Part shown: piece by piece, positions 1-44,224 of the stretch
Layout: each line of letters opens with the position of its first letter
How positions within the stretch are numbered: the stretch's first letter is position 1
DNA from: a virus
DNA length: 44,224 nt
Virus record (IMG/VR): IMGVR_UViG_3300050015_000082
Coordinates: 1 to 44,224 of that record
Strand: one strand, 5' to 3'
Position numbers and translations under genes: made by a program
Notes under the pieces: generated by a model
Database searches by the model: none
What the model was told of the DNA's origin: nothing
The model's input: only the letters and a program-made list of their open reading frames with translations

Positions 1-635
1 ACGGCTGCTTTTGCCAACTCAAACATGGCAGCACGGTCGAGGCTGAGTTCCGATCCATCATCGGGAAATTCTCCCACGTTGCTCTTGAGAATAGGATAAT
101 TCTCCCACTCTTGGAGGGTTTTGAGTAAGCATCCCATACGCACAGCACGTGACCCGTCTTCATAAAGAACGGCCCATACTTGGTAGAGATAAAGGCTAGA
201 AGAGAATGAGCGCAGCAAATGGATTTTCTTACCGCTCAGGTCGGCACCGCTCAGGTCGGCACCGCTCAGGTTGGCACCGCTCAGGTCGGCATCGCGCAGG
301 TCGGCACGGTTCAGGTCGGCATCGCGCAGGTCGGCACCGCGCAGGTAGGCACCGCTCAGGTCGGCACCGCTCAGGTAGGCACCGCTCAGGTAGGCACCGC
401 GCAGGTAGGCACCGCTCAGGTTGGCACCGCTCAGGTAGGCACCGCTCAGGTTGGCACCGCGCAGGTCGGCACGGTTCAGGTCGGCACCGCGCAGGTTGGC
501 ACGGTTCAGGTCGGCACCGCGCAGGTCGGCACGGTTCAGGTTGGTTTTCTCCTTGATGGCCTCGATCAGCGCGTCTTTTATGGTGAGTGCGGATGAGACA
601 AAGATTACTGCACCGTAAATGCTTTTAATTTCCAC
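1..635 (-). CDS. Pentapeptide-repeat protein, paralog A. This is the 5' 635 nt; the 3' end is cut by the window edge and continues at 44123..44224 if the contig is circular, giving 220 aa in total.
   Basis: The minus frame is open from GTG 635..633 (preceded by AGGGAGA) to nt 1. It translates as [31 protein letters not shown], then about 21 A(D/N/Y)L(S/R/N)(G/R/D) pentapeptides, then a C-terminal domain almost identical to paralog B. It is absent from the ORF track because it has no in-window stop. Confidence 0.8.
   Translation of the reverse strand, partial: MEIKSIYGAVIFVSSALTIKDALIEAIKEKTNLNRADLRGADLNRANLRGADLNRADLRGANLSGAYLSGANLSGAYLRGAYLSGAYLSGADLSGAYLRGADLRDADLNRADLRDADLSGANLSGADLSGADLSGKKIHLLRSFSSSLYLYQVWAVLYEDGSRAVRMGCLLKTLQEWENYPILKSNVGEFPDDGSELSLDRAAMFELAKAA
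233..545 (-). repeat. Coding tandem array of about 21 imperfect 15-nt units (plus strand caggtcggcaccgc[t/g]-like)
   Basis: 15-nt periodicity is directly visible. It encodes the pentapeptide repeats of paralog A. There are no unique spacers. Confidence 0.9.
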
Positions 636-687
636 GGTTTTTCTCCCTTTCCTATTTTCTGGTTGACAAGGTAACCGGACAAGCGCG

Positions 688-958
688 GCCCTTTCCTCCC
701 GGATTGGGCCTTTCTGTTTGTGGTGTCATTTTTCTGGAATGGTCATGCGGAGAACGGCTGCTTTTGCCAACTCAAACATGGCAGCACGGTCGAGGCTGAG
801 TTCCGATCCATCATCGGGAAATTCTCCCACGTTGCTCTTGAGAATAGGATAATTCTCCCACTCTTGGAGGGTTTTGAATAAGCATCCCATACGCACAGCA
901 CGTGACCCGTCTTCATAAAGAACGGCCCATACTTGGTAGAGATAAAGGCTAGAAGAGA
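688..958. repeat. Duplicated 3' module of the pentapeptide-repeat genes (C-terminal domain coding plus about 40 nt of 3' flank), copy B
   Basis: 754..958 equals 1..205 with one mismatch (878 a vs 125 g). 688..753 equals 44085..44150 with one mismatch. Confidence 0.9.
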
Positions 959-1523
959 ATGAGCGCAGCGAATGGATTTTCTTACTGCGCAGGTTGGCAC
1001 CGCTCATGTAGGCACCGCTCAGGTTGGCACCGCTCAGGTTGGCACCGCTCAGGTCGGCACCGCGCAGGTCGGCACCGCGCAGGTTGGCACGGTTCAGGTC
1101 GGCACCGCGCAGGTCGGCACGGTTCAGGTCGGCATCGCGCAGGTCGGCACGGTTCAGGTCGGCATCGCGCAGGTCGGCACGGTTCAGGTCGGCATCGCGC
1201 AGGTCGGCACCGCGCAGGTCGGCACCGCTCAGGTCGGCACCGCGCAGGTAGGCACCGCTCAGGTTGGCATCGCTCAGGTAGGCACCGCTCAGGTCGGCAC
1301 CGCTCAGGTAGGCACCGCTCAGTTTGGCACCGCTCAGGTCGGCATCGCGCAGGTAGGCACCGCTCAGGTTGGCATCGCTCAGGTAGGCACCGCTCAGGTC
1401 GGCACCGCGCAGGTCGGCACCGCGCAGGTCGGTTTTTGCCTTAATGGCCTCGATCAGCGCGTCTTTTATGGTGAGTGCGGATGAAACAAAGACTACTGCA
1501 TCGTAAATGTTCTTGATTTCCAT
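726..1523 (-). CDS. Pentapeptide-repeat protein, paralog B (265 aa)
   Basis: ORF 726..1562. The start was moved to ATG 1523 ([30 protein letters not shown]) by alignment with paralog A. About 30 consecutive A(D/N/Y)LXX repeats are followed by a non-repeat C-terminal domain of about 85 aa. Confidence 0.85.
986..1432 (-). repeat. Coding tandem array of about 30 imperfect 15-nt units
   Basis: Same 15-nt unit as 233..545. It encodes the repeats of paralog B. Confidence 0.9.
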
Positions 1524-1524
1524 A

Positions 1525-1716
1525 TCAGTTCCCTTCTTGCGGGTTGATGATACGTTCCACATCGATGCGGTTGATGCGCCAGAACTTCAGACCCAGCCGA
1601 TGCGCCTTGAGATGATCCGTGAGAATCCAGCGCAGGATAGTCGATGGGGAGAAGCCGGTGATCTTCGCGACTTCCGTGATGCTGTATTCGTCCTTGATCG
1701 GTATACTGTTTTTCAT
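1525..1716 (-). CDS. Small HTH DNA-binding protein (excisionase/MerR-like HTH type)
   Basis: 63 aa. [47 protein letters not shown] fits the excisionase-type HTH pattern. Its ATGA overlaps the upstream gene. Confidence 0.6.
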
Positions 1717-5038: not shown

Positions 5039-5052
5039 CGTAAAAGAGTTCC

Positions 5053-5106
5053 CATTGGAGACTGATTTAGTATCCATTAGAGACGCAATTCGTATACAAT
5101 AGAGAC
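5053..5106 (+). repeat. Three phased 10-bp direct repeats CA(T/A)T(G/A)GAGAC at exact 22-bp spacing
   Basis: cattggagac 5053..5062, cattagagac 5075..5084, caatagagac 5097..5106. The last repeat abuts ATG 5107. Confidence 0.55.
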
Positions 5107-13202: not shown

Positions 13203-13703
13203 ATGCCACAGACTGATTCAATTCAATGGCTTCATGGAACGCCCTCCGCGGCAAGCAATGTGTTTACGGCCACGGCGACTACCGACTACTCCGACAACGA
13301 GTTGGACTTTGGCGCACCCGCTACGGGTGGCAGCTATCCGTATCTCCCTGAGTTCCCATCGCTGACAGAGAAGGGCTACACCTTTCCTCCTGAAGTGGTT
13401 GGAAACGGTGGGGTGGAGATGGGTATCCACCTCGCCATCTCCGCTCCGGTTTTGGTTACTGGCGGAATGACGGCCGGAGTGGTCAACGCTTTGACCTCGG
13501 CAACTACCGGGGCGACGACGGTGATTGCAAGCCGAACGTTTACTCCGGCCCAACTCGCAATTGCCGGAGCGCATTATTTCATTCCGGTGTCTGGAGCTGC
13601 CATACTGGAATTCTTGCGATGCAATTTCGTCGCCACGTCTTTCGCGGCGGATTCTGGAACGGCATGGGCATGGTACGGTCCAAAGACAGGTGGAGAAAAG
13701 TAA
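13203..13703 (+). CDS. Candidate head decoration/cement protein (166 aa)
   Basis: Lies immediately after the capsid gene with a strong RBS (TAAGGAGATATC). Function is assigned by position only. Confidence 0.4.
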   Translation: MPQTDSIQWLHGTPSAASNVFTATATTDYSDNELDFGAPATGGSYPYLPEFPSLTEKGYTFPPEVVGNGGVEMGIHLAISAPVLVTGGMTAGVVNALTSATTGATTVIASRTFTPAQLAIAGAHYFIPVSGAAILEFLRCNFVATSFAADSGTAWAWYGPKTGGEK

Positions 13704-14212
13704 TGCCAATCATTGAAGCGATGTGTCTTCATGACGCGTTTGACAGCTCTCAGTGCCTCTACTACGAGCGGGGTAGAACGTACCCTATCGACACTGAGAG
13801 CGAAGTTGCCAACATGACGGCTCGTCCCCTATCTTCGGGAAAAGTAGACCCGAAGACAGGGGAGATTATCGCCGTGAAGGTTGCTCGAAAGCCCATACCC
13901 TGTTTCGAGTTTGACCGGGCCGCACCGCTTGGAGCCGTTGGAAATATGGTCCCAAGCGACTACACCTGCAAAAAGTGCGGAACGGACTGCAAGTCACTCA
14001 ACGGACTTGGAACCCACAACCGCCAGAATCATCCTCCGGAAGTATTCAAGGACGGTACCGAGGAAGAGCAGATCGCGCCACGTCCTGACGGAAGGAAGAA
14101 GAAGAATAAGACCTTCACTTGCAAAACGTGCGGGGAAGTCCTTCCTAACCTCTGGGGGCTGCGAGTCCACAACAAGATCCACGAAAAGGCTGCGGTCACC
14201 GAGGCCGCTTAG
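13703..14212 (+). CDS. Protein with two classical C2H2 zinc fingers (169 aa)
   Basis: The start is set at ATG 13703, which overlaps the previous TAA by one nt. Fingers: YTCKKCGTDCKSLNGLGTHNRQNH and FTCKTCGEVLPNLWGLRVHNKIH. Confidence 0.6.
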   Translation: MPIIEAMCLHDAFDSSQCLYYERGRTYPIDTESEVANMTARPLSSGKVDPKTGEIIAVKVARKPIPCFEFDRAAPLGAVGNMVPSDYTCKKCGTDCKSLNGLGTHNRQNHPPEVFKDGTEEEQIAPRPDGRKKKNKTFTCKTCGEVLPNLWGLRVHNKIHEKAAVTEAA

Positions 14213-19529: not shown

Positions 19530-20024
19530 ATGGCGGGAAGCATCTCGGCAACCACGGCAACTCTGATAGCTGGCGGGGCTTCATCTCTCATGTCCGGCGT
19601 TGGGAAGTACGAGCAGGGACAGCAGCAGCAGAAAGCATACGACTACAACGCCTCAATCACTGAGCAGAACACAGCTAACCAGGTCGTTGCCAATCAGCAG
19701 AAGTTTTCGTCTCTGGTAGGCCGTCAGGCAACCTCTTACGCAGGAGCAGGAGTGGATATTGCTTCCGGCTCCCCGCTCCTCATCATGGCTGCTACTGCCG
19801 CGCGCGGAGCGCAAGAGGGAGAACAGATTGAGCAGTCAGGTACGGAACAGGCGAACCTCCAACGCTACTACGGAAAGATGGCGGCGTTCAGCGGAATTAC
19901 TGGTGGCATAGGATCGTTCCTGAGCGGAATGACCTCCGACCTGTCTTCCTACGAAAAACTGACAAGCAATCCTAAACCAACGTCTTCAGCGTTTCCGGGC
20001 TTAGGAGAGGGGATTGAAGGCTGA
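19530..20024 (+). CDS. Internal virion/ejection protein candidate (164 aa)
   Basis: The start is set at ATG 19530 (GAGGGCGAAAG before it). The N-terminus is paralogous to 8389..8664. It occupies the position of T7 gp13/14. Confidence 0.55.
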   Translation: MAGSISATTATLIAGGASSLMSGVGKYEQGQQQQKAYDYNASITEQNTANQVVANQQKFSSLVGRQATSYAGAGVDIASGSPLLIMAATAARGAQEGEQIEQSGTEQANLQRYYGKMAAFSGITGGIGSFLSGMTSDLSSYEKLTSNPKPTSSAFPGLGEGIEG

Positions 20025-21811
20025 TGCCGCGCATACCAGGAGTGCCTGAACTCGAACCGGTAAACCAACCAACAATGTCGCCGCAAGAGGCATCTCGTGG
20101 AGCCGAGGCCGTCTCCCAACTTGGGGCTGATGCCAATCAGTCTGTTCTATCCGCATTCGATCTTGAGATGTACATCAAGAAAGCACAGCAGCACGTTGAC
20201 TCCTTGGCTGCGCAGAATGACATTGCAAAGGCTTACGCTGATACTCAGAACCAACTGTCCAAGACTCAGAACTCCCGCGACGTGGACGGGGTGATTGAGA
20301 GCGCAAACCAGAATCTAAACGAGGTATCAAAGCGTTGGTCAACCTCGCCAGCAGCGATCCAAATTCAGCAGAGCGCCGATTCTCTCAGGCCGGACCTTAG
20401 CCACATTGGTACTGCTCGCCAAGTTGATCTGATGGGTAAGGAATTCAAGATCACCATCGACCGGCAGGCCGAAGTCCTGGCAGGGAGCTATGCACAGGAT
20501 AGGGCATCTGGCGGGTCTGGAGACATGTCTCTGGGCGCATTCTCTACAGCGGTACAGGGAGGCGTAGAAACTGGCCTTGTAGGAAACGTAGAGGCTGGGG
20601 AGTATGTTCGTCAGTTCCGGCAAAAAGGGCAAGAGCTTCAAATCAAAAATGCGATCTCAAATGCTAATCCGGAAGTAAACACGAAGATTTACGAGGACAT
20701 CGACAAGCACCGCGACATGTTCCCCGATGTAACGCAGGAGCAGTTGGACGTTCTCAAGGGGCAAGCTCTATCGGCATTCGAGGCGCACACAAAGCAGAAG
20801 GACTGGACTGAAGGGCAGATGGCCATCAAAACTCAGCTTGTTCCCAAGATCAACCAGTTCACGAATCCGGCTACGGGGAAGTTCGATGAGGGAGCGGCAC
20901 TGAAGGATAACGCGGATCGGTTGACGAAAGGCGAGATCACCGAAACGCAGTCGGGGGTTCTGGCACAGGGCTTTGCCTCACATGAGGCGCAGTTGAATGT
21001 CGGCTACAAGCAACAGGCAGAGAAAACCAAAAACGACATTGTGGACCTATTCCACAAGCGCAAGTATGCCGAGGCTACTTCCGCATTGGAGCAACACAAA
21101 CTAGACCCTGAATTTCAGGATATGTATGAGGGGCTGACAAAATACGGCGATTCGATGCGCCGCGAGGACCGTGCCGAGTATCGCGCCGATAGGTCATTCC
21201 AGATAGAGCAGGAGCAGGACAACAGTAACCGCACATTCTCTTCGCTGTTGAGCGACATGGCGCATGGGAAGATTTACACCGACTCTCAACTCATGCAGAT
21301 GGTAAATGGGAAGGGTTCTGTAAATCCTGGGCAGATGAGATGGCAAGAGGCTCAGGAATCCATGCAGGCCATGCGTAAGTACGAATCCGATCCTCAGTTC
21401 CAATCTGCGGTAAAGATGCTTGATGAAGGCTTTCCTGAAGCCGAGCAGACCCGAAAGCAGCGCCTTGCTCAGACGCACATGAGCGCACAAGGAAAGCAGG
21501 CCGAGCAGTCTGAAATCAATGCGAGAATAGAGGACCGAAAGTCTCTGACGTTTAAGGCGTGGCAAGCCAGGATCAACCAGAATCCGAACGAGGACAAGAT
21601 CGCTGCGATGAAAGAGGTCATGGCGCCTCAGATTCAGCAGCAGATTAGCCAGCAGATAGACGCCGCATTTGGTACGCAGCAGGCTCCTCCGTCAAGGGGA
21701 ATTCTCGATATGTTCCGTTCCTCTGGTACCACCAAAGAGGGAGCAACGAAGACGAATAGTGCTGGCGACAAATTGAAGTACACGGGGGGTAAATGGGTAT
21801 TGCAGCCATAA
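20024..21811 (+). CDS. Internal core/ejection protein candidate, Gln-rich helical (595 aa)
   Basis: Position and size are analogous to T7 gp15. No motif can be cited. Confidence 0.5.
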   Translation: MPRIPGVPELEPVNQPTMSPQEASRGAEAVSQLGADANQSVLSAFDLEMYIKKAQQHVDSLAAQNDIAKAYADTQNQLSKTQNSRDVDGVIESANQNLNEVSKRWSTSPAAIQIQQSADSLRPDLSHIGTARQVDLMGKEFKITIDRQAEVLAGSYAQDRASGGSGDMSLGAFSTAVQGGVETGLVGNVEAGEYVRQFRQKGQELQIKNAISNANPEVNTKIYEDIDKHRDMFPDVTQEQLDVLKGQALSAFEAHTKQKDWTEGQMAIKTQLVPKINQFTNPATGKFDEGAALKDNADRLTKGEITETQSGVLAQGFASHEAQLNVGYKQQAEKTKNDIVDLFHKRKYAEATSALEQHKLDPEFQDMYEGLTKYGDSMRREDRAEYRADRSFQIEQEQDNSNRTFSSLLSDMAHGKIYTDSQLMQMVNGKGSVNPGQMRWQEAQESMQAMRKYESDPQFQSAVKMLDEGFPEAEQTRKQRLAQTHMSAQGKQAEQSEINARIEDRKSLTFKAWQARINQNPNEDKIAAMKEVMAPQIQQQISQQIDAAFGTQQAPPSRGILDMFRSSGTTKEGATKTNSAGDKLKYTGGKWVLQP

Positions 21812-24800
21812 ACATCGATCCCTCTACTGGCGAGAGAGTACAGAACGTCCGCATTGACCCCACAACCGGGGAGCGAGTTCAGAGTGCGCCCACCTATGAC
21901 CCATCGAGCATTCCTACTGGGTCTTCCGATGACGCATGGAAAGCGGCGGTGCGATCTCGCACCATCGGCGTTGAACCTGGGTATGCCTACCAAAACAAAG
22001 ATGAGATTGACAAGCAACTCCGCGAACGTGATCCGAACTACGACAACACGGAACTCGACCCGACAATCGCCAACGACATTAAGGTAGGCCTTGAGGGTTC
22101 CGTGTTCGGCCTGCACGATAGGGAGAAACTTCCAGAAGAACTTCGCAACCCTGGCTTGATCGACAGGTTCGTTTCTGGATTGGCTCAGACAGTAGCAGAC
22201 GCTCCGTGGATGATTGCCGGTGGAACCGCAGGGGGTATTGCTGGTGCTGCGGCAGGTTCGGAGGTACCTATCGTCGGGAACGTCACCGTGGGGGCAATAG
22301 GAGCCGGAGCGGGCGCATTTGCTCTGCCAGCCGCAATGCGCGAGGCTTTGGTTGAAGGAATCAAGAATGGCGAAGTGAAGGATTTCTCCGACCTACTGAG
22401 ACGCTCTGCCAAGGTTCTTATTGAGGGCGGCAAGGGGGCAATCACCGGAGCGGCTACAGAGTTGGCCGGGGGAATTCCTGTTGGAAGCATGGTGGCCAAG
22501 AGTGCTCTCGCTACCACTGGGGTACGGTCTGTCTATCAAGCAGCAGCTCTGACCACCACGGCAGACGTTCTCGAAGGCAAGATTCCCACTGCTGGAGACT
22601 TCGCAGGCAATGCAGCGCTTATCGTTCCCTTGAACCTCATTACGCGCGGATACTCAATGAGCAAGGGGCAAGCAAGAGACGCATTGCTAGACGTATACAA
22701 GAAGGACGGACGGACCCCGCAGGAATCGAAAACCATACTCGATGCTCAGCCTCCCGTGAAGCCAGACCTCCCGCCTGGACTTCGCCCAGCAATTAAGGTT
22801 GGTGATTCGTTTATTGAGGGAGACGAAGGAGAGACGCATTCTGAACTGTCTGAGAGGTTGGGTGAGAAGCCTGTCACGATGTCCGAACTGGAGTCCGATC
22901 CTTCACTTGCTTCAAAAGTTCTCAGCACTCCAGAGATTCACGAGCAGGATGTTATAGATGCGGCATGGGTGACATGGGACGACGCTTTACGCAATGCGCA
23001 CGATCCTCGATTAGAGGATGAATCAAACATCGGAATAGAAGATCAGCGCCTTCAGGCAAGTCGAGGCAATCTGAAGTCCGGCAGGGGGTTCATAGACCAT
23101 GAAAGTGGCAAGTTTCTTTCTCGCTCTGAAGCTCGCCGATGGATGGAGAAAAATGAGCCAGATGTGCATGAGATGTGGCTTGAATCGCAGATGGGAGACA
23201 AACAGGCGGAACTCCATTCCGAGGATTACTCATCGGCACGAAGCCGTGTACAGAACCGCAATCTGGCTGAGGGTGATGAGACCATTTCCAACTTTTCTCC
23301 GCAGAATGCGGAACGTCTTGCGGCGGCACGGAAGGACTTGAACGAGATCAAAGCGGGAAATTCGTCCAAGGGGTACATCAAAGAAGTTCTGAGAACTCTA
23401 TTCTCCGGACAGCGCGATACGAGGATTGTGGATACTACGCAGTTGCGAGACATTCTCCAGAAGGAAATCCCGGATTACAAAGTCCAGCAAGCCTTGACGT
23501 ACTATCGAGACTATAAGGGTCGCCCAGAAGCATTGCAGGCGGCAATCGATAGGTACGACGCTGGAGAAAATGAGGCGCAAAAGGCACTTAATGAATCTCG
23601 TAGGATTGCGCAGAATCCATCCCCAGAACTTATAGAGGCTGATCGTAAGTACACGCAGTACATGACGGAAGCGTTAGAGGAAAAGAGGCAACTTGGAATT
23701 GGAGACAGCAGCATTGATCCTGCTAAATATGTTCCTCACGACTTGAAAAGAGTGGAGGATGAACAGTCATTTGGCGGTGGAAAGAAACCAATGGCTACGT
23801 CCTCCGCAAGGACCATGAAAAGAAAATATGCCACGCTCGATGAAGCTGTGGATGCTGGCGAGGAAAAACTAGAGGCCCGTTCGGTAAACGCCATAGATTT
23901 GCTGTCAATTTATGGGGATGACCACGCTAGACTGGTTGCCACTAATCTTCTTTCTACCGAGCTTATAAACACGAAGCTGGGAGAATATGGAACGCGAGAT
24001 GATCGCCCAGCCGGATGGGTAGAGCTCGATCCGAGGGGCAGAACGTTCGAGTTGAGGCAGGGTCCAGTATCTCGCTCACTATACGTTCCAAAAGATGTAG
24101 CCGACGCGATGAAGCCTTTATTCGAGCAGGGATTGAAAGGAACCGCTTTGGCTCCACTGCTCAAGACGCAGGGATACGTCAAGATGCTGGAGTTGGGCTT
24201 GTCCTTCTTTCACATGAAGGCGTTGAGCATCACGGCGTTCAATAACCAAAGCCTGACTCAGTTCACCAAGTCCCTCGTATCCGATACCAAGTCTCCGGAG
24301 TTTGCCTCAGCGGAGCGGGAGTGGGCAGCAGACGGCCTCACAACCACCAAGACCAGCACGCCCTACGAAGCCTACAAAGGGCTGAACAAGTCAAGCATCC
24401 CAACAGGGTTAGACAAACTGGCGAACGCGCCTATTATCAAGCAGGTTGATGCTGCTTTCAAGTGGACAACGAAAGAGACGTTCGATGTAATCCAGAGGAA
24501 ATTCAAGGTGGAGGACGCCTCTCGGAAAGCAGCGGCATGGATGGCGAAACACCCCGACGCTACAACTTCAGAACTGTTCTCGGCGCGGCGCTCGATTGCG
24601 AAAGAAGTCAATGCAGCCTATGGCGGGCTGAATTGGGATGTGCTTGGGGCGGGCAAAACCGTGAGGGATGTATCTCGCCTGTTCTTGCTGGCTCCAGACT
24701 GGACCTATTCAAACGTGTTGAATGCCAAGTATGCCTTCGAGGGTGGCCCTGCTGGCGATGCGGCTCGGATGTTCTGGATGAAGTCATTCGCTACTGGAAT

Positions 24801-25377
24801 CTCTATGACGGCGGCGGCGAGTATAGCCATCGGCGGAAAGTACGACCCTACCGACATCAAGCATCTCGACCAGGTTTACCTCGGGACCGATAAGGACGGC
24901 AAGGAGATGTATGCCGACTGGTTCTTTGCGGGCGCTCCGAGGGATGCCATGACGCTGATGAAGAATGTCGCCAGTGAATCTCCTATCGGAGGCACGGCGC
25001 GGTTCGTAGTCGGCAAGGCTTCCCCACTACTCGGAATGGCGTTCGGTTTATCATCGAACAATGCCGGTGGAAAGCCAATCACTTCCGCAGATGATACCGT
25101 TGGGGAGAAGTTTGGCAAGCAGTCTGAGTATGTGGCCAGCAGGGTTCTTCCGATCAGCGGTGTAAGCGCATTCAAGACGGTGAGCGATGCGCTGACAGAC
25201 CCCGACCACGAATACACCTACCGCGACCTTCTGGAGCTTGCGGCGGATACGATTGGATCGCAGACGATTCACTACGGCGACGGGGACAACGGGGCGGCAC
25301 CGAAATCGAAATCGGTTCTTTCGGGAGAAAGCAAGAGCGGGACTCGAAAGACGAAGAGGTTTAGCATACTGAAATGA
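21793..25377 (+). CDS. Large internal core/ejection protein candidate (1194 aa)
   Basis: Position and size are analogous to T7 gp16. It has a Gly/Ala-rich hydrophobic segment near aa 140-260. No lysozyme motif was seen. Confidence 0.5.
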   Translation: MGIAAINIDPSTGERVQNVRIDPTTGERVQSAPTYDPSSIPTGSSDDAWKAAVRSRTIGVEPGYAYQNKDEIDKQLRERDPNYDNTELDPTIANDIKVGLEGSVFGLHDREKLPEELRNPGLIDRFVSGLAQTVADAPWMIAGGTAGGIAGAAAGSEVPIVGNVTVGAIGAGAGAFALPAAMREALVEGIKNGEVKDFSDLLRRSAKVLIEGGKGAITGAATELAGGIPVGSMVAKSALATTGVRSVYQAAALTTTADVLEGKIPTAGDFAGNAALIVPLNLITRGYSMSKGQARDALLDVYKKDGRTPQESKTILDAQPPVKPDLPPGLRPAIKVGDSFIEGDEGETHSELSERLGEKPVTMSELESDPSLASKVLSTPEIHEQDVIDAAWVTWDDALRNAHDPRLEDESNIGIEDQRLQASRGNLKSGRGFIDHESGKFLSRSEARRWMEKNEPDVHEMWLESQMGDKQAELHSEDYSSARSRVQNRNLAEGDETISNFSPQNAERLAAARKDLNEIKAGNSSKGYIKEVLRTLFSGQRDTRIVDTTQLRDILQKEIPDYKVQQALTYYRDYKGRPEALQAAIDRYDAGENEAQKALNESRRIAQNPSPELIEADRKYTQYMTEALEEKRQLGIGDSSIDPAKYVPHDLKRVEDEQSFGGGKKPMATSSARTMKRKYATLDEAVDAGEEKLEARSVNAIDLLSIYGDDHARLVATNLLSTELINTKLGEYGTRDDRPAGWVELDPRGRTFELRQGPVSRSLYVPKDVADAMKPLFEQGLKGTALAPLLKTQGYVKMLELGLSFFHMKALSITAFNNQSLTQFTKSLVSDTKSPEFASAEREWAADGLTTTKTSTPYEAYKGLNKSSIPTGLDKLANAPIIKQVDAAFKWTTKETFDVIQRKFKVEDASRKAAAWMAKHPDATTSELFSARRSIAKEVNAAYGGLNWDVLGAGKTVRDVSRLFLLAPDWTYSNVLNAKYAFEGGPAGDAARMFWMKSFATGISMTAAASIAIGGKYDPTDIKHLDQVYLGTDKDGKEMYADWFFAGAPRDAMTLMKNVASESPIGGTARFVVGKASPLLGMAFGLSSNNAGGKPITSADDTVGEKFGKQSEYVASRVLPISGVSAFKTVSDALTDPDHEYTYRDLLELAADTIGSQTIHYGDGDNGAAPKSKSVLSGESKSGTRKTKRFSILK

Positions 25378-25387
25378 GAGGAAATCG

Positions 25388-25828
25388 ATGAAGATTCAGA
25401 AAGAAATAATTGACGCGGCAACTCTGGCAGCATTCGACCTGGAGAACTTCGACGAAAATCATCGGATGGATGAGGGTGAATGGACGCTGATGCTCGGCAC
25501 GGGGCGTGTTTGCATTTACACGGCGCGAGACGAACAAGAAGGAATCGCAGCAATTCTTGCATTAAAGGCCCCAGCGATTGAGGTTGGATTGTGGTACTTT
25601 TACTCGGTCGCCGTGTCCGAAAAGTATCGCCGGATGAACCTTGGAACCAGGCTGTTCCATGAGGCCATTGACTCAGAAATAGCTACCGGAAAAATCAATT
25701 CCCATTGCCACGTAGATAACGAGGCGTCGATTGGATTCCACAAGTCTTTGGGATTCCATGCCGTTCAATATGTCCCTGATTTCTACGGAGACTATGAGGA
25801 TGCTATCATGTGGGAGCGGATGCGTTGA
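25388..25828 (+). CDS. GNAT-family acetyltransferase (146 aa)
   Basis: VAVSEKYRRMNLGTRLFHEAI (a degenerate motif A) and NEASIGFHKSLGFHAV. RBS is GAGAGGAAATCG. Confidence 0.6.
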   Translation: MKIQKEIIDAATLAAFDLENFDENHRMDEGEWTLMLGTGRVCIYTARDEQEGIAAILALKAPAIEVGLWYFYSVAVSEKYRRMNLGTRLFHEAIDSEIATGKINSHCHVDNEASIGFHKSLGFHAVQYVPDFYGDYEDAIMWERMR

Positions 25829-25910
25829 GATCAATCTATCTGAATTCGTGGGCACACGCTTGGGACTGCATAAGCGAGGAACTTGGGCTGGATAACTGGA
25901 TGGCGAGTTG

Positions 25911-27170
25911 ATGGCAGAATCCTACAAGTCGAAGAGCGTGGCGGTAGTAGATAACGGATGTTACCCGGAACTGGCATCCAAGCTGAGCGAGAGCTTCGGC
26001 AAGGTTTACTATACCTCGCCCTGGGTAGCAGACTACCCCTCTTCGTACAAGACAGAACTGGCGAAGGGCTTCCCCGACTTTGAGCAGGTCAAGGACATCT
26101 GGGACATCGTTGACGATGTGGACCTGTTCGTGTTTCCAGATCAGCACCAGGGGCCGTTGCAGAACTACCTACAGAGGCAAGGGAAGCGCGTGTGGGGTTC
26201 CCGCGATGGAGACGAACTAGAACTGTACCGTGAGGAGGCCAGAGAATTCTTTGACAGCCTTGGGATCGTTCAGCCTCCCTATGAAGTGGTCCAGGGCATG
26301 ACCGCCCTACGAAAGTACATCAAGAGTCGTGACAAGGAAAAACTATGGGTGAAGATCAGCCGAACGAGGGGCGACACAGAGACTTTCTCGGTTGAGGGAT
26401 ACGAACTGAGCAAGGGGCACCTTGACGAGTTGGAAGCAGGGCTTGGTCCGCTTGCAGAATATAGGCCGTTCATTGTCGAGGAGAACCAGCCGGACACCTT
26501 CGACCTTGCCATTGACACGTACTGTATAGATGGTCAGTTTCCCTCCAAGAGCTTGCTTGGGAATGAGCAGAAGGACCAGGGATACATAGGAGTAGTCAAG
26601 GACTGGAAGCAGTTTCCGAAGCAGATGCGCGAGAACTATGAGAAGCTGAGTCCGGCACTCAAGGAATATGGATACAGGAACTTCTTTGCCATGGAGCATC
26701 GAACAGGCAAGCAAGGAATGTTCTTGAGCGACCCGTGCCTACGTGTGGGATCTCCCATCTTCGAGCTTGAAATGGAGATGATTGGAAACTTTGCAGAGAT
26801 TCTGTGGGAGGGCGCAGATGGAAAGCTCATCGAGCCAGAGTACCGCGCAAAGTACGGATACGAGATTTTCGTGCAAAGCGAATGGGTTGATGAACATCCC
26901 CTGCTAGTTAGCTTTCCAGACAAGTACCGGGATCAGATCAAGTTCCGCTACTCCGCTCAATTCCCCGATGGTCTATGGGTATTGCCTCAGAAGGCTGGAC
27001 CGATCTTTGGTGCAATCGTTGCCTACGGAGACAGCATAGACGACTGTGTAGGCCAGGCCGAAGATATCGCCGGTCAGATCAAGGGGCAGAATGTCGAATC
27101 GTTCACAGGTAGCGCAGAGGCGTTGAAGAAGAATCTGGAAGAGATGGAAGCATTTGGCGTAAAATTCTGA
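25911..27170 (+). CDS. ATP-grasp fold enzyme (PurD/RimK-like ligase architecture, 419 aa)
   Basis: LWVKISRTRGDTETFSV is a Lys/Gly-loop-like segment. FIVEENQPDTFDLAIDTYCIDG and GYRNFFAMEHRTGKQGMFLSDPCLRVGSP are metal/ATP-site-like segments, and all three occur in the order expected for an ATP-grasp fold. Confidence 0.6.
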   Translation: MAESYKSKSVAVVDNGCYPELASKLSESFGKVYYTSPWVADYPSSYKTELAKGFPDFEQVKDIWDIVDDVDLFVFPDQHQGPLQNYLQRQGKRVWGSRDGDELELYREEAREFFDSLGIVQPPYEVVQGMTALRKYIKSRDKEKLWVKISRTRGDTETFSVEGYELSKGHLDELEAGLGPLAEYRPFIVEENQPDTFDLAIDTYCIDGQFPSKSLLGNEQKDQGYIGVVKDWKQFPKQMRENYEKLSPALKEYGYRNFFAMEHRTGKQGMFLSDPCLRVGSPIFELEMEMIGNFAEILWEGADGKLIEPEYRAKYGYEIFVQSEWVDEHPLLVSFPDKYRDQIKFRYSAQFPDGLWVLPQKAGPIFGAIVAYGDSIDDCVGQAEDIAGQIKGQNVESFTGSAEALKKNLEEMEAFGVKF

Positions 27171-27183
27171 TTAGGAGAAGTCT

Positions 27184-27540
27184 ATGAAAAACAAATGGTT
27201 TCTAGGAGCGCTCTCGGTAGCGATTCTGACGATGGCAGTAGTCGTTATCCTGCCGCCAGCTAATGTTCATGGTCAGGCAATCGGATACACGGCAACTGGC
27301 CAGCAGGCCGTAATTGCAACCGCTACGGTAGTGAGTGGAATAAGCTACGGAACGGTGTGCATCAAGGCATTGAGCACAAACAGCATCAGCGTGTTCGTTG
27401 GCGGGCCGGGAGTAACGACTTCCACAGGCTTCGAGCTTACGGCAACTCAAGTTCCATATTGCGCTACCGTAAACAAGCTACCGTTTTATGTCATAGCCTC
27501 AACAACCGGAGCTTCTGTTTCTTGGATTGAAAATCGATAG
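27184..27540 (+). CDS. Small protein with an N-terminal signal/anchor sequence (118 aa)
   Basis: N-terminus MKNKWFLGALSVAILTMAVVVILPPANVHGQ. RBS is AGGAGAAGTCT. Confidence 0.6.
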   Translation: MKNKWFLGALSVAILTMAVVVILPPANVHGQAIGYTATGQQAVIATATVVSGISYGTVCIKALSTNSISVFVGGPGVTTSTGFELTATQVPYCATVNKLPFYVIASTTGASVSWIENR

Positions 27541-27549
27541 GAGTCGCGT

Positions 27550-30500: not shown

Positions 30501-30951
30501 CACCATACATCTGTCGGGAGCATCTAGCGATGCTAGTTGGTTCAACAACGGCGGGTGTGTGGCGATAGGGGGGACGACGTGCGCTCTCGGTGCGCTTGAA
30601 GTGTACGGCACTGTTGCAACCTACGCCGAGAGCGGCAACTCTCCGACCATCAGTTCTTTTTCTGGAACCAAATATGCTCAGTTTTACTACAACAGCCCCA
30701 GCGATGCGATGTTAGTTCAACTGGTGGGGTCTGCGACAGGTGGCGTAAAGATACAGAACTATACCTCTGGTGCTTATATCAACCTGCTCAGCACCAACTA
30801 CTTTGGCATCGGGAAAACGCCATCCTACTACCTCGACGTGAACGGGGATGTGAACACTGGCGGCGTCTTCCGGACCGGCGGAACTGCTGGCGTGACGAAG
30901 ACTTGTACAACCTACCCGACAGTAGCCGGGGGAATTGTGACGGGATGCTGA
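27550..30951 (+). CDS. Tailspike-like beta-helix protein with a Sec-type N-terminal signal-like sequence (1133 aa)
   Basis: N-terminus MKRIAVFLLALLPVAAHATV. A pectate-lyase-type start motif, QHDDTAALNAANASGYNVYWRPGTYNVTGPI, lies at about 29533..29620. It occupies the position of T7 gp17. Confidence 0.6.
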   Translation: MKRIAVFLLALLPVAAHATVTTQAISVSFTCTGSTGPYPFGFPISTAAALTVTQNGAVLASTAYTISPVNNDYTNGGSVTLNTACASGGNLLLLKRQTPLTQTSVFTDNMPVPMKSFERGLDKLTEIAQEQNAAIGNVVPWPTTAGIPYWASGLSWAGAYNASNPIPANYLPSIASLGGVANNAPALAAPTLCIDTSFNGASYACSTTPTFTPVNGTRIMFIPSVDSLLNATVSVNSGRPASIMTPTFGGGTTILADQLIDGQVVSLVYRTSLGGWWQIDGGDGTRQVNEGGTGATTAAGALANLGAAGTDLANTFTLSQAFNHPLDSTGNTFFQCGLTTPQFCQLTFQDYAGGYVGYVAAYGSGATSQIGLTTGAGGMVIDHLGKGTFAQGLSTSSFALNGGTSMTGNQGTGAYVQHSDGTGTNSLAAFNADGSTKDSGITVTGSGSSQVVTAPGSFAAPTVVLSGATGTQCLHEVSGSILPTGSDCGSGGGGGLPTGWVDPVTSYNAAGVATTTTGTISASSNSLVVASSTGWTAGMGIAVSGSGAKGGVYAFTVTAPGSYTVCPTAFSFTGGGGASAAGTPTCHWTPSTGVYTVTGGIITNVGSGYTTAPTIGFTGGTGSGAAATAIITSELVTTVSVISGTTFTLAANASTAVSGATIQHDDTAALNAANASGYNVYWRPGTYNVTGPINVSSVFKLLGAGGQTTINNRGRTNNVINVTYSVYSTSGVALPPGPEISGFQIVQDPSITPVSGCGLQWGSGAINPYTEGVRMRDIGMTNTWAGLCAIDGTALNFLHDIRVQNTVSGWGIYYNSRSPGGDNNFDGVSLWLNAGLYIINGATNPYTNLKTNTGGMTTPVIFGSGIIMDQRFDNPSLDGLTTTGCSMDFTAANINTVTITSGDWGGATAFCAPQNVGSLTATGFLNSSSIGRFAINQMPNLTIYSAVPGTGITLTNGTHTGAQLFASGSLADTGILVLATGGTNTIHLSGASSDASWFNNGGCVAIGGTTCALGALEVYGTVATYAESGNSPTISSFSGTKYAQFYYNSPSDAMLVQLVGSATGGVKIQNYTSGAYINLLSTNYFGIGKTPSYYLDVNGDVNTGGVFRTGGTAGVTKTCTTYPTVAGGIVTGC

Positions 30952-40046: not shown

Positions 40047-40093
40047 TGCATCTCGTAGGGTTGCGGGGCAGCTTGCACTGCCCCTGGGGTGAA

Positions 40094-40901: not shown

Positions 40902-41555
40902 TTATACGTTAAGCTCTTCGATCATCTGCTCGACTTCGGCGTTTATCTTGCATACTTCCGCTTCCAGTTCGGCCACGCGCTTTTCATCGTAGGCAACCGG
41001 AATCACGAGCAACTGAAGGTGTGCAGGGAGACGCGAATCGAAGCAAACAAAATCCCACTTTTCGCGCTCACAGCACACCATATTCCATTGAATCTGGTCG
41101 GCGTACTCTTGCGGAACTTCACGCGACTTCCAGATTCCCAGATGCCGCCCTGTGGTAAGGCATTTGATCTCAATCCCCGAATCGTCGCCAACAAGTCCAT
41201 CGGGCGATCCTCCGGTAAAGTCCAGCGCCGGGTGAACCGCGAAGCATACAGGCTCCACCATCAGGCTGCACCGCTGCTCGTATGCGGACCGGGCATATTC
41301 CTCCTGCTCTGCTCCCCACTTCATTTCGTTCGTGACGAAGTGGTTTGAGGAAAGGCCGGTCAGCCGTTCGGAAAGCAACTCTATCGCGTAGTCAGAACGG
41401 GCTTTTAGCGGGATACCTTCTTTGCTCTTCTGCTTGCTGTAGGCCATCACGTCGCCAAGGCGAGACGCCGTTATGCGGCCACACCGTAGCTTCATCCACT
41501 CCATTGTCGGCTGTCCATCGGGGCCGTGCTGTTCTCCAAAGACGATTCTAGGCAT
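40902..41555 (-). CDS. YqaJ-type (lambda Exo-like) recombination exonuclease (217 aa)
   Basis: Has WMKLRCGRITASRLGDVM, GGSPDGLV and IEIKC motifs, and lies adjacent to an annealase. Confidence 0.7.
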   Translation of the reverse strand: MPRIVFGEQHGPDGQPTMEWMKLRCGRITASRLGDVMAYSKQKSKEGIPLKARSDYAIELLSERLTGLSSNHFVTNEMKWGAEQEEYARSAYEQRCSLMVEPVCFAVHPALDFTGGSPDGLVGDDSGIEIKCLTTGRHLGIWKSREVPQEYADQIQWNMVCCEREKWDFVCFDSRLPAHLQLLVIPVAYDEKRVAELEAEVCKINAEVEQMIEELNV

Positions 41556-42312
41556 GGGGAGCCGCCTTCGCCAGTTGCTTGAACCGCTCGTTCTTGGCTT
41601 CCCCGAACACCCGCAGAGCTTCCGTATCTTTTGCGTCGGTTGCGGCCTTGGATGCGGCCAGATATACCCGCTTGAGCGACTCTACATCTGGCGCGGTTGC
41701 GATGGCGTCCAAGTAGGGCTTGACTGCGTCTTCCGGTATGCCCTCCTTCTCCAGCGCGTCAATGCCCACCGCGATGTTGAAGATCGCTAACAACAAATAC
41801 CGCTTCGAGCGCGAAGAAGCGATAGCATCGGCATCCGTTGCGGTTGCCATTGCTCCACCTTTCGGGCCGGTTGTGCTTGGCGTGATCTCGCTGTAGTAGG
41901 GACGTGATACTCCGCACCGCGACAACATGGCCTCAATCCGCACCTTGCCTGGAGCTATCGGGGAAACCTCTGAGAATGTGATGTTGAACCGCGCTGCTGT
42001 GTAGATGGGACGGATAGCCCTGTCAAGCTGCGCATAATCTGCCCAATTGGAGTTTGTATCGTTCCGGTGGACATTCGGAGCGATGCGTCCGATCTTCTGC
42101 TGGCAATCGTTTAGCGCATCGTCAAAGTCAATCTTTGCCTGCCGCTCCTGCGCCTCCCAATCGAACCGGACCATTGACTGCTGAAGCGCCACCAGTTCTT
42201 TCAGGACTTCTGGAGCTACATTCTTAGTAAGCGCCTCCTGAATCAGTGAAAGCGGAGTGATCTCCCTCTTTTGAATTGCGGTCGGCTCCTGAATTGCGAT
42301 CTCGTTGCTCAT
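41548..42312 (-). CDS. ERF-family single-strand annealing protein (254 aa)
   Basis: NWADYAQLDRAIRPIYTAARF and AIASSRSKRYLLLAIFNIAVG resemble ERF signature segments. It is paired with the YqaJ exonuclease. Confidence 0.55.
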   Translation of the reverse strand: MSNEIAIQEPTAIQKREITPLSLIQEALTKNVAPEVLKELVALQQSMVRFDWEAQERQAKIDFDDALNDCQQKIGRIAPNVHRNDTNSNWADYAQLDRAIRPIYTAARFNITFSEVSPIAPGKVRIEAMLSRCGVSRPYYSEITPSTTGPKGGAMATATDADAIASSRSKRYLLLAIFNIAVGIDALEKEGIPEDAVKPYLDAIATAPDVESLKRVYLAASKAATDAKDTEALRVFGEAKNERFKQLAKAAPHA

Positions 42313-44083: not shown

Positions 44084-44120
44084 GGCCCTTTCCTCCTGGA
44101 TTGGGCCTTTCTGTTTGTGG
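44084..44120 (+). terminator. Weak terminator-like hairpin (GGCCC-n14-GGGCC + TTTCTGTTTG). An identical copy lies at 688..722.
   Basis: A 5-bp GC stem is followed by a T-rich tract on the plus strand only. Confidence 0.3.
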
Positions 44121-44224
44121 TGTCATTTTTCTGGAATGGTCATGCGGAGAACGGCTGCTTTTGCCAACTCAAACATGGCAGCACGGTCGAGGCTGAGTTC
44201 CGATCCATCATCGGGAAATTCTCC
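44085..44224. repeat. Copy A of the duplicated 3' module, including the 74-nt terminal overlap (44151..44224 = 1..74)
   Basis: Direct comparison of the window ends. It also matches 688..827. Confidence 0.9.
44123..44224 (-). CDS. 3' end (C-terminal 33 codons plus stop) of a pentapeptide-repeat protein gene, most simply paralog A across the circular junction
   Basis: Stop TGA at 44125..44123. The sequence is identical to the 3' end of paralog B (…[11 protein letters not shown]). Confidence 0.75.
   Translation of the reverse strand, partial: GEFPDDGSELSLDRAAMFELAKAAVLRMTIPEK

What the first reader, a model, noticed from the sequence alone, without database searches (positions are those of the whole stretch)
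1..1523. Tandem pentapeptide-repeat paralogs with near-identical flanks but different repeat numbers (about 21 vs about 30)
Seen: two adjacent minus-strand genes encode proteins with a shared N-terminal cap of about 30 aa ((M/V)EIK(N/S)IY...[13 protein letters not shown]). This is followed by an uninterrupted A(D/N/Y)LXX array and then a shared C-terminal domain of about 85 aa. The 3' 205 nt of the coding region plus about 65 nt of downstream flank are virtually identical at the nucleotide level, with one mismatch in each segment. The arrays differ in both length and unit order. Established: pentapeptide-repeat proteins form right-handed quadrilateral beta-helices. Several of them (MfpA, Qnr, AlbG/McbG) act as B-DNA mimics that bind gyrase or other DNA-handling enzymes. 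Phage DNA mimics such as Ocr block restriction systems. Inference: the phage may carry two DNA-mimic rods of different length for anti-defence or topoisomerase modulation. These would be kept homogenised at the ends by gene conversion while the arrays expand and contract.
Basis: partly seen in the sequence, partly recalled or inferred. Interest (0 to 1): 0.68.

Follow-up and report, generated by a model that had tools for sequence, protein, structure and literature searches.

The report
Tandem phage pentapeptide-repeat gene pair
A 44-kb uncultivated phage carries two adjacent early genes that each join a rod-shaped pentapeptide-repeat helix (21 or 30 repeats) to a conserved, undescribed end domain; the repeats change length quickly, the function is unknown, and DNA mimicry is not supported.

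Summary
The window is a circular 44,150-nt podovirus-like phage contig with a 74-nt end overlap. Two neighbouring minus-strand early genes encode pentapeptide-repeat proteins (PRPs): 726..1523 (265 aa, 30 units) and join(44123..44150,1..635) (220 aa, 21 units). A 299-nt 3' block is 99% identical between them, but the 5' caps are only 89% identical (Fisher p=5e-5), so the 3' end was recently homogenised or swapped. The arrays show no synonymous variation at all. Relatives use different codon sets, have 4-34 units, and differ in length between otherwise identical genes. That is concerted evolution with rapid expansion and contraction. The conserved part of the family is the 85-aa C-terminal domain. 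Its AF2 model has pLDDT 95, it has no Pfam, PHROG or PDB match, and it falls in 227 clusters, all uncultivated. In relatives it follows pentapeptide, hexapeptide (LbH) or other repeats. The DNA-mimic reading is weak: net charge is -2 and -6, there are no Qnr loops, Qnr and MfpA model scores are far below cut-off, and some relatives have a single coil. Only this phage, of 78 loci, has two copies. No independent assembly spans the junction between them. The likeliest role is an early host-interaction accessory protein. Interest is moderate.

The parts
726..1523 (-). PRP gene 2, 265 aa. N-cap is 1434..1523, the 30-unit pentapeptide array is 984..1433, the C-terminal domain is 729..983 and the stop codon is 726..728.
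   Evidence: ORF and translation. Pfam PF00805 E=2.5e-56. AF2 model pLDDT 89 with a regular beta-helix over residues 31-180. The whole array is reproduced without gaps in an independent JGI contig, L074, at 99.77% identity.
1..635 (-). PRP gene 1, 5' 635 nt (GTG start at 635). N-cap is 546..635, the 21-unit array is 231..545 and the first part of the C-terminal domain is 1..230.
   Evidence: Translation across the circular junction gives a 220-aa protein that ends with the same ...RMTIPEK as gene 2. Pfam PF00805 E=1.8e-41.
44123..44150 (-). PRP gene 1, last 25 coding nt plus the stop codon (44123..44125). It continues from position 1 across the circular junction.
   Evidence: 74-nt terminal overlap and the reconstruction of gene 1.
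687..985 (.). Copy A of the 299-nt homogenised block: the 39-nt 3' flank plus 260 nt of coding sequence of gene 2.
   Evidence: An ungapped comparison at offset 753 shows 3 mismatches, at 700, 878 and 970.
44084..44224 (.). Copy B of the homogenised block, first part. It continues at 1..232, and 44151..44224 repeats 1..74.
   Evidence: The Logan unitig L075 ends exactly 30 nt past the copy-specific base 44097, which is a k=31 graph branch.
636..686 (-). Unique 51-nt spacer between the 3' flank of gene 2 and the start of gene 1. It carries the ribosome-binding region of gene 1 and resembles the sequence upstream of the single PRP gene in relatives L003 and L005.
   Evidence: This is the only sequence that joins the two copies. 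It was not found in other public assemblies.
1525..1716 (-). Excisionase-type HTH gene directly upstream of gene 2, with adjoining stop and start codons (CTGATATG).
   Evidence: PHROG 66. TIGR01764 at 34.5 bits against a cut-off of 28.8. HTH_17 genes are the commonest upstream neighbour in relatives.
40902..42312 (-). Phage recombination module further down the same leftward gene cluster: YqaJ exonuclease at 40902..41555 and an Erf-like annealing protein at 41548..42312. It could drive repeat recombination.
   Evidence: PHROG 155. Pfam PF09588 E=8.6e-23. Erf-like and YqaJ genes recur near the PRP gene in relatives.

Best explanation
These are two tandem paralogues of an uncharacterised, phage-specific early-gene family. 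Each protein has three parts:
- a small N-terminal cap (a beta-hairpin plus a helix);
- an uninterrupted right-handed pentapeptide beta-helix, about 5 coils in gene 1 and 7.5 coils in gene 2;
- a conserved 85-aa alpha/beta C-terminal domain with the motifs VRMGC...W and [12 protein letters not shown].

Shown:
- The C-terminal domain defines the family. The rod in front of it varies in length (4-34 units) and even in type (pentapeptide, LbH hexapeptide, Cys-rich and other repeats).
- The arrays evolve in concert, through repeated amplification and loss of 15-nt or 30-nt units. Only surface-facing residues vary.
- The 3' 299 nt of the two copies were recently made identical, while their 5' ends remain as different from each other as from other phages.

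Inferred:
- The length changes arise by slippage or unequal recombination, possibly helped by the phage's own Erf and YqaJ genes.
- The shared 3' block reflects gene conversion, or a crossover within the arrays that brought in a second 5' module.
- Functionally, the proteins are cytoplasmic accessory factors made early in infection. The C-terminal domain binds a host or phage partner, and the rigid helix acts as a length-adjustable spacer or steric rod. Two lengths with one shared C-terminal domain would give two reach variants, or a heterodimer, against the same target. The target is most plausibly a DNA-processing or defence complex, judging by gene neighbourhood.
For: Phage identity and early-operon position:
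- Terminase, portal/adaptor, capsid and tail genes lie on the + strand. The PRP genes lie in a minus-strand block of small genes with an HTH gene, Erf, YqaJ and HNH genes.

Architecture:
- Pfam PF00805.
- AF2 full-length model at pLDDT 89.
- Foldseek matches to solved PRPs at E down to 1e-14. phmmer PDB matches stop by query residue 186, short of the C-terminal domain.

C-terminal domain:
- AF2 pLDDT 94.9.
- No Pfam, PHROG, NCBIfam, PADLOC or PDB match.
- 227 clusters at E<=1e-3 among 1.84 billion proteins; C-terminal in nearly all of the 150 best matches listed.
- The N-terminal partner is a pentapeptide array in most. It is Hexapep in P0157, P0178 and P0182, and other repeat types in P0146, P0174 and P0089.
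- BFVD structural matches, with weak E-values but probability 0.87-1.0, are to other phage beta-solenoid proteins.

Array turnover:
- 51 units have invariant third codon positions and one 15-mer per peptide type.
- The phage's own codon usage is nearly even, giving P about 1e-131 under independent draws.
- Codon sets are lineage-specific across 60+ relatives.
- L021 and L022 are identical except for 24 against 15 units.
- A 75-nt exact self-match at a 30-nt shift marks a recent amplification in gene 2.
- Cultured Barba phages and P22-like prophages show the same length variation. Phage L and ST64T differ by one 15-bp unit (PMC8022706).

Partial homogenisation:
-.
- 5'-module swapping in relatives, P0002 against P0003.

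Context:
- A P22-like phage has its PRP gene between ral and sie/cIII/kil/arf/erf.
- Erf-like and YqaJ genes recur near the PRP gene in relatives.
Against: - There is no experimental or homology-based clue to the partner or activity of the C-terminal domain, so the binding-module and spacer roles are inference only.
- Neighbouring genes in relatives are highly variable, with no consistent link to known anti-defence genes. An Acb2/Tad1-like gene lies about 6 kb away in one locus only.
- No independent assembly covers the junction between gene 2 and gene 1.
- None of the other 77 loci with the domain has two copies, so the pair could be very recent, transient or an assembly product.
- The window's ends lie inside the duplicated block, which is typical of repeat-limited assemblies.
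- Exact internal repeats of up to 75 nt make the unit counts uncertain for short-read data. The gene 2 array is, however, reproduced in L074.
Confidence: 0.6

Rival explanations
1. The two proteins are B-DNA mimics of different length, like Qnr, MfpA or AlbG, or functionally like Ocr. They would bind gyrase, topoisomerase, restriction enzymes or other DNA-handling defence enzymes.
For: - The pentapeptide helix fold is the one used by MfpA, Qnr and AlbG, and the full-length model aligns to them (Foldseek E 6e-9 to 1e-5).
- The genes are early and lie in the same leftward gene cluster as the recombination genes.
- A P22-like phage has its PRP gene next to the restriction-alleviation gene ral.
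- The gene 2 array has 23 acidic residues over about 36 A.
Against: - Net charge is only -2 and -6, with almost as many Arg/Lys as Asp/Glu.
- There are no loop insertions in the arrays.
- Qnr and MfpA curated models score 60-65 bits against cut-offs of 240-360.
- The closest solved sequences are cyanobacterial or designed PRPs, not Qnr or MfpA.
- Relatives with 4-7 units (1-2 coils) keep the same end domains.
- The same C-terminal domain follows LbH and other repeats, so the conserved function does not depend on a DNA-like pentapeptide surface.
Confidence: 0.15
2. Assembly artefact. The phage has one PRP gene, and the sample holds two allelic variants (a MEIKN-type gene with 30 units and a VEIKS-type gene with 21 units) that the assembler joined in tandem through their shared 3' block. 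Alternatively, the unit counts are wrong.
For: - The contig starts and ends inside the duplicated block (1-74 = 44151-44224 = 754-827).
- The repeats contain exact matches of 124, 91 and 75 nt.
- No other assembly contains the junction.
- All 77 other loci carry a single copy.
- Many relatives' contigs break at this gene.
- P0001 looks like a collapsed version of the L003 array.
Against: - The 51-nt spacer (636..686) is joined on one side to the 3' flank of gene 2, carrying copy-specific base C700, and on the other side to the gene 1 cap. A simple mixture of alleles would form a bubble in the graph, not this junction.
- The only other way to traverse the graph gives a 753-nt circle, which is not plausible.
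- Logan unitigs from SRR35915826 end exactly k-1 = 30 nt into the shared sequences, at 1455 and 44127. This fits two contexts present in that sample, though not necessarily on one molecule.
- The gene 2 array is reproduced gap-free in a separate JGI sample (L074).
Confidence: 0.12
3. The proteins act for the phage against other phages (superinfection exclusion or defence), or serve as cytoskeletal or structural scaffolds, rather than acting against host defence.
For: - In the P22-like early-left operon, the PRP gene sits among superinfection-exclusion genes.
- Weak structural matches of the C-terminal domain include a bactofilin-like 'polymer-forming cytoskeletal protein' of a Bacillus phage.
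- One weak PHROG hit is to a tail fibre family, E=4e-4 over the repeats only.
Against: - No PADLOC defence model matches.
- No signal peptide or membrane segment is evident in the sequence.
- The genes lie outside the + strand structural module.
- No integrase was found among the ORFs scanned, so a lysogenic exclusion role has no support here.
Confidence: 0.1

Closest known systems
Early-left-operon pentapeptide-repeat gene of P22-like phages (orf232 of phage L / ST64T; Salfasec13b_046) and gp043 of Rheinheimera Barba phages
   Same: - It is a phage early accessory gene.
- The architecture is N-cap, uninterrupted pentapeptide array and a 75-85-aa non-repeat C-terminal domain.
- Array length varies between near-identical phages: 215 against 195 aa in Barba phages, 6-40 units in prophages, and a 15-bp difference between L and ST64T.
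- It lies near Erf-type recombination genes.
- Its function is also unknown.
   Different: - Its C-terminal domain (GCQxHxxxxW...MDxxALxF) is not demonstrably homologous. There is only an 18-column local match around VR(M/A)GC....EW, with hhalign probability 56-65%.
- tblastn with the window's domain finds nothing in 50,697 cultured-phage records.
- Those phages carry one copy of this gene, not a tandem pair that shares a 3' end.
Qnr / MfpA / AlbG / McbG topoisomerase-protecting pentapeptide proteins
   Same: Right-handed quadrilateral beta-helix of A(D/N)LXX units, of comparable length (5-7.5 coils against about 8-9). Structural alignment E 6e-9 to 1e-5.
   Different: - It scores far below the curated family cut-offs.
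- It has no loops A and B.
- It ends in an 85-aa alpha/beta domain rather than a short dimerisation helix.
- The surface is nearly neutral.
- It is phage-borne with a hypervariable length.
- No link to quinolones or toxins is evident.
Ocr / ArdA-type phage and plasmid DNA-mimic anti-restriction proteins
   Same: Early expression from a mobile element. An elongated rigid shape is the only shared physical feature.
   Different: - Ocr and ArdA are highly acidic and have non-solenoid folds (my own knowledge; see also PMC7261183 and PMC2731889, listed).
- Here pI is 5.0-5.6 and net charge is -2 and -6.
Cyanobacterial pentapeptide proteins (Np275/Np276, HetL, Alr5209)
   Same: These are the best sequence and structure matches for the array.
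   Different: The similarity covers the repeats only. They lack the N-cap and C-terminal domain and have a cellular, not viral, context.
Coding minisatellites and contingency loci in microbial surface or host-interaction genes
   Same: In-frame tandem DNA repeats that are homogenised within a lineage, change copy number quickly and vary mainly at exposed residues.
   Different: Here the repeat builds a folded beta-helix in a cytoplasmic phage protein. No phase-variation switch (frameshifting on/off) is evident in the window. One Barba isolate does carry a frameshifted copy.

Membership tests
Pentapeptide-repeat proteins (Pfam PF00805, Rfr fold) | Tandem A(D/N)LXX units that score above the Pfam gathering threshold | tested here: met
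   139.7 and 187.2 bits against a cut-off of 20.2. There are 21 and 30 perfect-register units, with A at position 1 in 49/51 and L at position 3 in 50/51.
Pentapeptide-repeat proteins (Pfam PF00805, Rfr fold) | Right-handed quadrilateral beta-helix, four units per coil | tested here: met
   The AF2 model (pLDDT 89) has one beta-bridge every 5 residues over residues 31-180. Foldseek matches solved PRPs at E 1e-14 to 1e-5. This is a prediction, not a solved structure.
Qnr family | Score above the curated NCBIfam Qnr cut-off | tested here: not met
   NF033086 scores 59.7 bits against 240. The QnrA, B, S and other subfamily models score 40-68 bits against 425-500.
Qnr family | Two loops (A and B) that interrupt the helix and are needed for gyrase protection (established knowledge) | tested here: not met
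   Both arrays are uninterrupted runs of 5-residue units.
MfpA-type DNA mimic | Score above the curated MfpA cut-off | tested here: not met
   NF000349 scores 65.2 bits against 360.
MfpA-type DNA mimic | Predominantly electronegative surface that imitates B-DNA, and binding to gyrase | tested here: inconclusive
   Array net charge is -2 and -6, from 13 acidic against 11 basic residues and 23 against 17. No electrostatic surface map could be computed here. Gyrase binding cannot be tested with these tools.
Ocr/ArdA-type DNA mimics | Very acidic protein with arrays of carboxylates that replace phosphates | tested here: not met
   pI is 5.55 and 4.98, and net charge is -2 and -6 for 220 and 265 aa.
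Proposed family: phage beta-solenoid proteins with the VRMGC / EFPDDGSE C-terminal domain (no database name) | C-terminal about 85-aa domain that matches the family profile | tested here: met
   45 homologues at E 1e-12 to 1e-44. 227 clusters in the profile search. Both window copies score E about 5e-40 against the profile. Invariant residues are Y14, M32, G33, C34, W42, N51, P56, S60 and R66.
Proposed family: phage beta-solenoid proteins with the VRMGC / EFPDDGSE C-terminal domain (no database name) | Domain preceded by a repeat solenoid, in a viral early or accessory region | tested here: met
   64 IMG/VR viral loci. Phage contexts with small genes and HTH, helicase, Erf and YqaJ genes. The repeats are pentapeptide or Hexapep.
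P22-like orf232-type early-left PRP | Homologous C-terminal domain (GCQxHxxxxW...MDxxALxF) | tested here: inconclusive
   hhalign gives probability 56-65%, E 6e-5 to 1e-4, over 18 columns only. The Barba sequence gives probability 6%.
Diversity-generating retroelement target | Variation confined to template adenines, with a nearby reverse transcriptase and template repeat | tested here: not met
   The variable array positions are G/A/T, A/C, G/A, G/C and G/A. No reverse transcriptase appeared among the ORFs scanned. Not every small ORF was scanned.

The most novel reading that the evidence does not exclude
The 85-aa C-terminal domain is a new phage effector or docking module that evolution mounts on interchangeable beta-solenoid rods. 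Rod length would be a rapidly tunable trait, a molecular ruler or steric probe, under diversifying selection in an arms race with a host complex. On this reading the phage keeps two rod lengths on one homogenised head so that it covers two target geometries or forms heterodimers.
Probability: 0.15. Interest if true: 0.8.

Novelty: new variant of a known kind. Interest (0 to 1): 0.45.

Why it matters
Phage pentapeptide-repeat genes are common, are often annotated, and none that I could find has been characterised. This locus shows three things.

- One such family is defined by an undescribed C-terminal domain, not by the repeats. The domain is a candidate for a new Pfam/DUF entry: 227 clusters, a confident fold model and no structural relative.
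- The rod in front of that domain can be exchanged between solenoid types and changes length on very short evolutionary timescales. The changes leave a clean signature of concerted evolution, with variation only at surface positions.
- These arrays routinely break short-read assemblies, so their diversity is under-recorded.

If the C-terminal domain proves to be a host-targeting module, the family would be a natural example of a length-adjustable protein scaffold. It would also be a new class of early phage accessory factor. If not, the locus remains a well-documented case of repeat dynamics and partial gene conversion in a phage.

Tried and rejected
- **Finding the window or its junction elsewhere.** Exact look-ups of gene 2 (265-aa and 278-aa forms) and of the ORF at 43685-43918 found nothing. 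Two junction or spacer patterns had no match in JGI metagenome contigs, and the junction pattern also had none in IMG/VR. Only neighbouring genes gave contigs (L073, L074 and L075).
- **Naming the C-terminal domain.** It has no match in Pfam as a single sequence or across all 33 members, or in PHROGs, NCBIfam, PADLOC, PDB by sequence or PDB by fold. The weak DUF7017 hit (E=0.14) and Birna_VP5 hit (E=0.029) were discarded as chance.
- **Cultured-phage homologues of the domain.** tblastn with two divergent members found none.
- **Whole-genome relatives among cultured phages.** Megablast of 24 kb found none. The DNA hits of the arrays to Salmonella, Rheinheimera and Ralstonia phages are repeat-to-repeat matches, not orthology.
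- **Homology between this C-terminal domain and the P22-like or Barba one.** Only a local motif matches, so I did not claim homology.
- **DGR-type targeted mutagenesis.** Rejected.
- **Codon bias as the cause of array uniformity.** Rejected.
- **The + strand ORFs inside the arrays** (206..556, 219..596, 959..1444, 972..1484). These are reading-frame echoes of the repeats and are open only within them.
- **Sigma-70 promoter and terminator scans.** They gave no more sites than shuffled sequence.
- **Literature searches.** None found a functional study of a phage PRP of this type.
Full report
**1. What the window is**

The first 74 nt of the window repeat its last 74 nt, so it reads as a circular contig of 44,150 nt. 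On the + strand it encodes a large terminase, a portal/head-tail adaptor, a major capsid protein and tail tube proteins. On the minus strand it encodes small early-type genes, including an excisionase-type HTH protein, an Erf-like annealing protein, a YqaJ exonuclease and an HNH endonuclease. It has no close relative among 50,697 cultured-phage records. The finding lies in the minus-strand early block and crosses the circular junction.

**2. The observation**

- Gene 2 (726..1523, minus strand) encodes 265 aa: a 30-aa cap ([30 protein letters not shown]), 30 uninterrupted pentapeptide units and an 85-aa C-terminal domain.
- Gene 1 starts with GTG at 635 and, read across the junction, ends at 44123. 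It encodes 220 aa with the same three parts and 21 units.
- Tandem Repeats Finder and Pfam agree with this.
- The two copies share a 299-nt block with 3 mismatches: 260 coding nt plus a 39-nt 3' flank.
- The + strand ORFs inside the arrays are frame echoes of the repeat.

**3. Is the two-copy arrangement real?**

I could not see reads. The points against it are these:

- The contig ends lie inside the duplicated block.
- Exact repeats reach 124, 91 and 75 nt.
- No other public assembly contains the 51-nt spacer that joins the copies.
- None of the other 77 loci with this domain has two copies.

The points for it are these:

- The spacer is unique sequence. It is bounded by copy-specific bases, which a mixture of alleles would not create.
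- The only alternative path through the graph is a 753-nt circle.
- An independent JGI contig (L074, sample 3300050014) reproduces the HTH gene and the whole 30-unit array of gene 2 with 3 substitutions and no gap.
- Two Logan unitigs from SRR35915826 are 100% identical to the window and stop exactly 30 nt (k-1 for k=31) into the sequences shared by the two copies, at 1455 and 44127. Both contexts therefore exist in that sample.

I put the artefact reading at about 0.12.

**4. What the proteins are**

The arrays are textbook pentapeptide repeats. The AF2 model (pLDDT 89) gives a regular beta-helix over residues 31-180, preceded by a hairpin-plus-helix cap. It aligns to solved PRPs.

The more informative part is the C-terminal domain:

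- Searched alone, it finds only proteins with the same layout.
- A profile search of 1.84 billion representatives finds 227 clusters. In nearly all of the 150 best matches listed, the domain lies at the C-terminus.
- It has no match in Pfam, PHROGs, NCBIfam, PADLOC or PDB by sequence.
- Its model is very confident: pLDDT 94.9, with four strands, a short helix, the conserved [12 protein letters not shown] loop and a long helix. It still has no PDB fold match at E<=0.001.
- In most members the domain follows pentapeptide units. In P0157, P0178 and P0182 it follows bona fide hexapeptide (LbH) repeats, and in others it follows Cys-rich, GDYFTA-type or GYQDV-type repeats. One member has a phage zinc-finger N-terminus.
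- BFVD gives weak-E but high-probability structural matches to the C-termini of other phage solenoid proteins.

The domain is therefore the constant module and the rod is exchangeable. Every member found is from uncultivated viruses or MAG contigs. Three of the six MAG contigs are binned as Acidobacteriota.

**5. How the arrays evolve**

- In the 51 units of the two genes, every pentapeptide type is encoded by a single 15-mer, and all third codon positions are invariant apart from one Lys codon. Variation sits at five first or second codon positions and gives D/N/Y, S/R/N and G/R/D at the outward-facing positions.
- The phage's late genes use synonymous codons almost evenly, so this uniformity is common descent of the units, not codon bias.
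- Across relatives, each lineage has its own codon set and little third-position variation. One subgroup is an exception, with old, degenerate arrays. That is concerted evolution.
- Unit numbers range from 4 to 34.
- L021 and L022 encode identical proteins except for 24 against 15 units.
- A 6-unit relative is reproduced in three samples.
- Gene 2 contains a 30-nt block repeated exactly 3.5 times.
- The same behaviour appears in cultured systems. Barba phage isolates of one species have PRP genes of 215 and 195 aa, plus one frameshifted copy. P22-like prophages have 6-40 units on near-identical C-termini. Phages L and ST64T, which are >99.9% identical, differ by one 15-bp unit in early-left orf232 (PMC8022706).
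- Many contigs of relatives end at the array, so short-read data under-record this diversity. Some short arrays, such as P0001 against L003, may be assembly collapses.

**6. The relation between the two copies**

- The caps differ at 10 of 93 nt. That is as much as either differs from the single-copy orthologues in L003 and L005 (7-11 of 93).
- The last 258 nt differ at 2 positions between the copies, but at 32-39 positions from those orthologues (Fisher p=4.7e-5).
- A simple recent duplication does not explain this. Either an older or imported second copy had its 3' end converted, or a crossover inside the arrays placed a foreign 5' module on a duplicated 3' end.
- Module swapping of this kind is visible in relatives. 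P0002 and P0003 share the C-terminal domain and a same-sized 96-aa downstream gene, but have different caps.
- Gene 1 keeps the upstream spacer seen in L003 and L005. Gene 2 abuts the HTH gene, an arrangement confirmed by L073 and L074.
- The phage's Erf and YqaJ genes could catalyse such events. That is inference.

**7. Function**

Nothing identifies a partner. The context says early, cytoplasmic and accessory:

- HTH_17 genes are the commonest upstream neighbour, and Erf-like and YqaJ genes recur nearby.
- In a P22-like phage, the analogous PRP gene lies between ral and the sie/cIII/kil/arf/erf genes.

The DNA-mimic idea is weakened by several results:

- The charge is near neutral.
- The arrays lack Qnr-type loops.
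- Curated Qnr and MfpA model scores are a quarter or less of the cut-offs.
- Some relatives have one or two coils.
- The rod type is interchangeable.

My best reading, as inference, is that the C-terminal domain is the specific binding or effector module and the helix is a rigid, length-adjustable spacer or steric element. A tandem pair on one homogenised head would give two reaches, or a heterodimer, against one target. The target is plausibly a DNA-processing or defence complex. I give the structural and evolutionary description high confidence and the functional part low confidence.

**8. Comparison with known systems, and novelty**

The locus belongs to the pentapeptide-repeat superfamily. 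It is not a Qnr or MfpA member and is not Ocr-like. Its closest analogue is the uncharacterised early-left PRP of P22-like phages. Homology of the C-terminal domains is limited to an 18-column motif, so I do not claim membership. Literature searches found no functional study of such phage proteins.

I rate it a new variant of a known kind, for three reasons: a new C-terminal domain family, interchangeable solenoids, and a partially homogenised tandem pair that is unique among 78 loci. Interest is moderate at 0.45. The evolutionary pattern is clean and the domain is new, but repeat-length lability in phage PRPs has been noted before, and the biology remains unknown.

Noticed in passing
window 40106-40378 (ORF 39729-40400, minus strand): A second coding tandem repeat: about 45 copies of a 6-nt unit (GCCGTA on the + strand). 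The ORF that stays open through it reads (RL/RR)n and continues into a Cys-containing C-terminal part. Another frame reads GYGSG-type repeats. The true frame is unclear, and there is no Pfam hit.
   Followed up: partly
window 43928-43939 and 44008-44019: The 12-mer TCCTTGACAGTT occurs twice, 80 nt apart, in the intergenic region just downstream of PRP gene 1 (0.15 matches expected by chance). It contains TTGACA on the + strand, antisense to the PRP genes. It could be an operator or promoter element. No canonical -10 hexamer lies at the right spacing.
   Followed up: partly
window 20024-30951: Four large + strand ORFs (595, 1194, 420 and 1133 aa) have no PHROG or Pfam match. They are presumably internal virion or tail proteins of an undescribed type.
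   Followed up: partly
window 13619-14212: A 197-aa ORF within the structural module has weak C2H2 zinc-finger-like Pfam hits (E about 4e-6, near the cut-off). This is unusual for a phage structural region.
   Followed up: no
L080 (Rheinheimera phage Barba22A gp043): The annotated 168-aa 'pentapeptide' protein is a frameshifted version of the 195-215-aa protein of sister isolates. After the array it reads [11 protein letters not shown].... This is either a real array indel or a sequencing error.
   Followed up: partly
P0018; also loci L084-L163: One family member fuses a phage zinc-finger DNA-binding domain (PF24623) to the C-terminal domain with only 2-3 pentapeptide units. Separately, 24 of 80 enterobacterial prophage loci with the P22-type PRP gene are cut by a contig end at the array, and NCBI labels many of these proteins 'partial'.
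   Followed up: partly
window 1525-1716: The excisionase-type HTH protein also matches the PADLOC model mad1 (mads_1) at E=5e-8. This is probably generic HTH similarity. No integrase was found among the ORFs scanned.
   Followed up: no
window 5052-5106: A short 22-nt tandem repeat (2.5 copies) lies just upstream of the small ORF that precedes the terminase gene.
   Followed up: no
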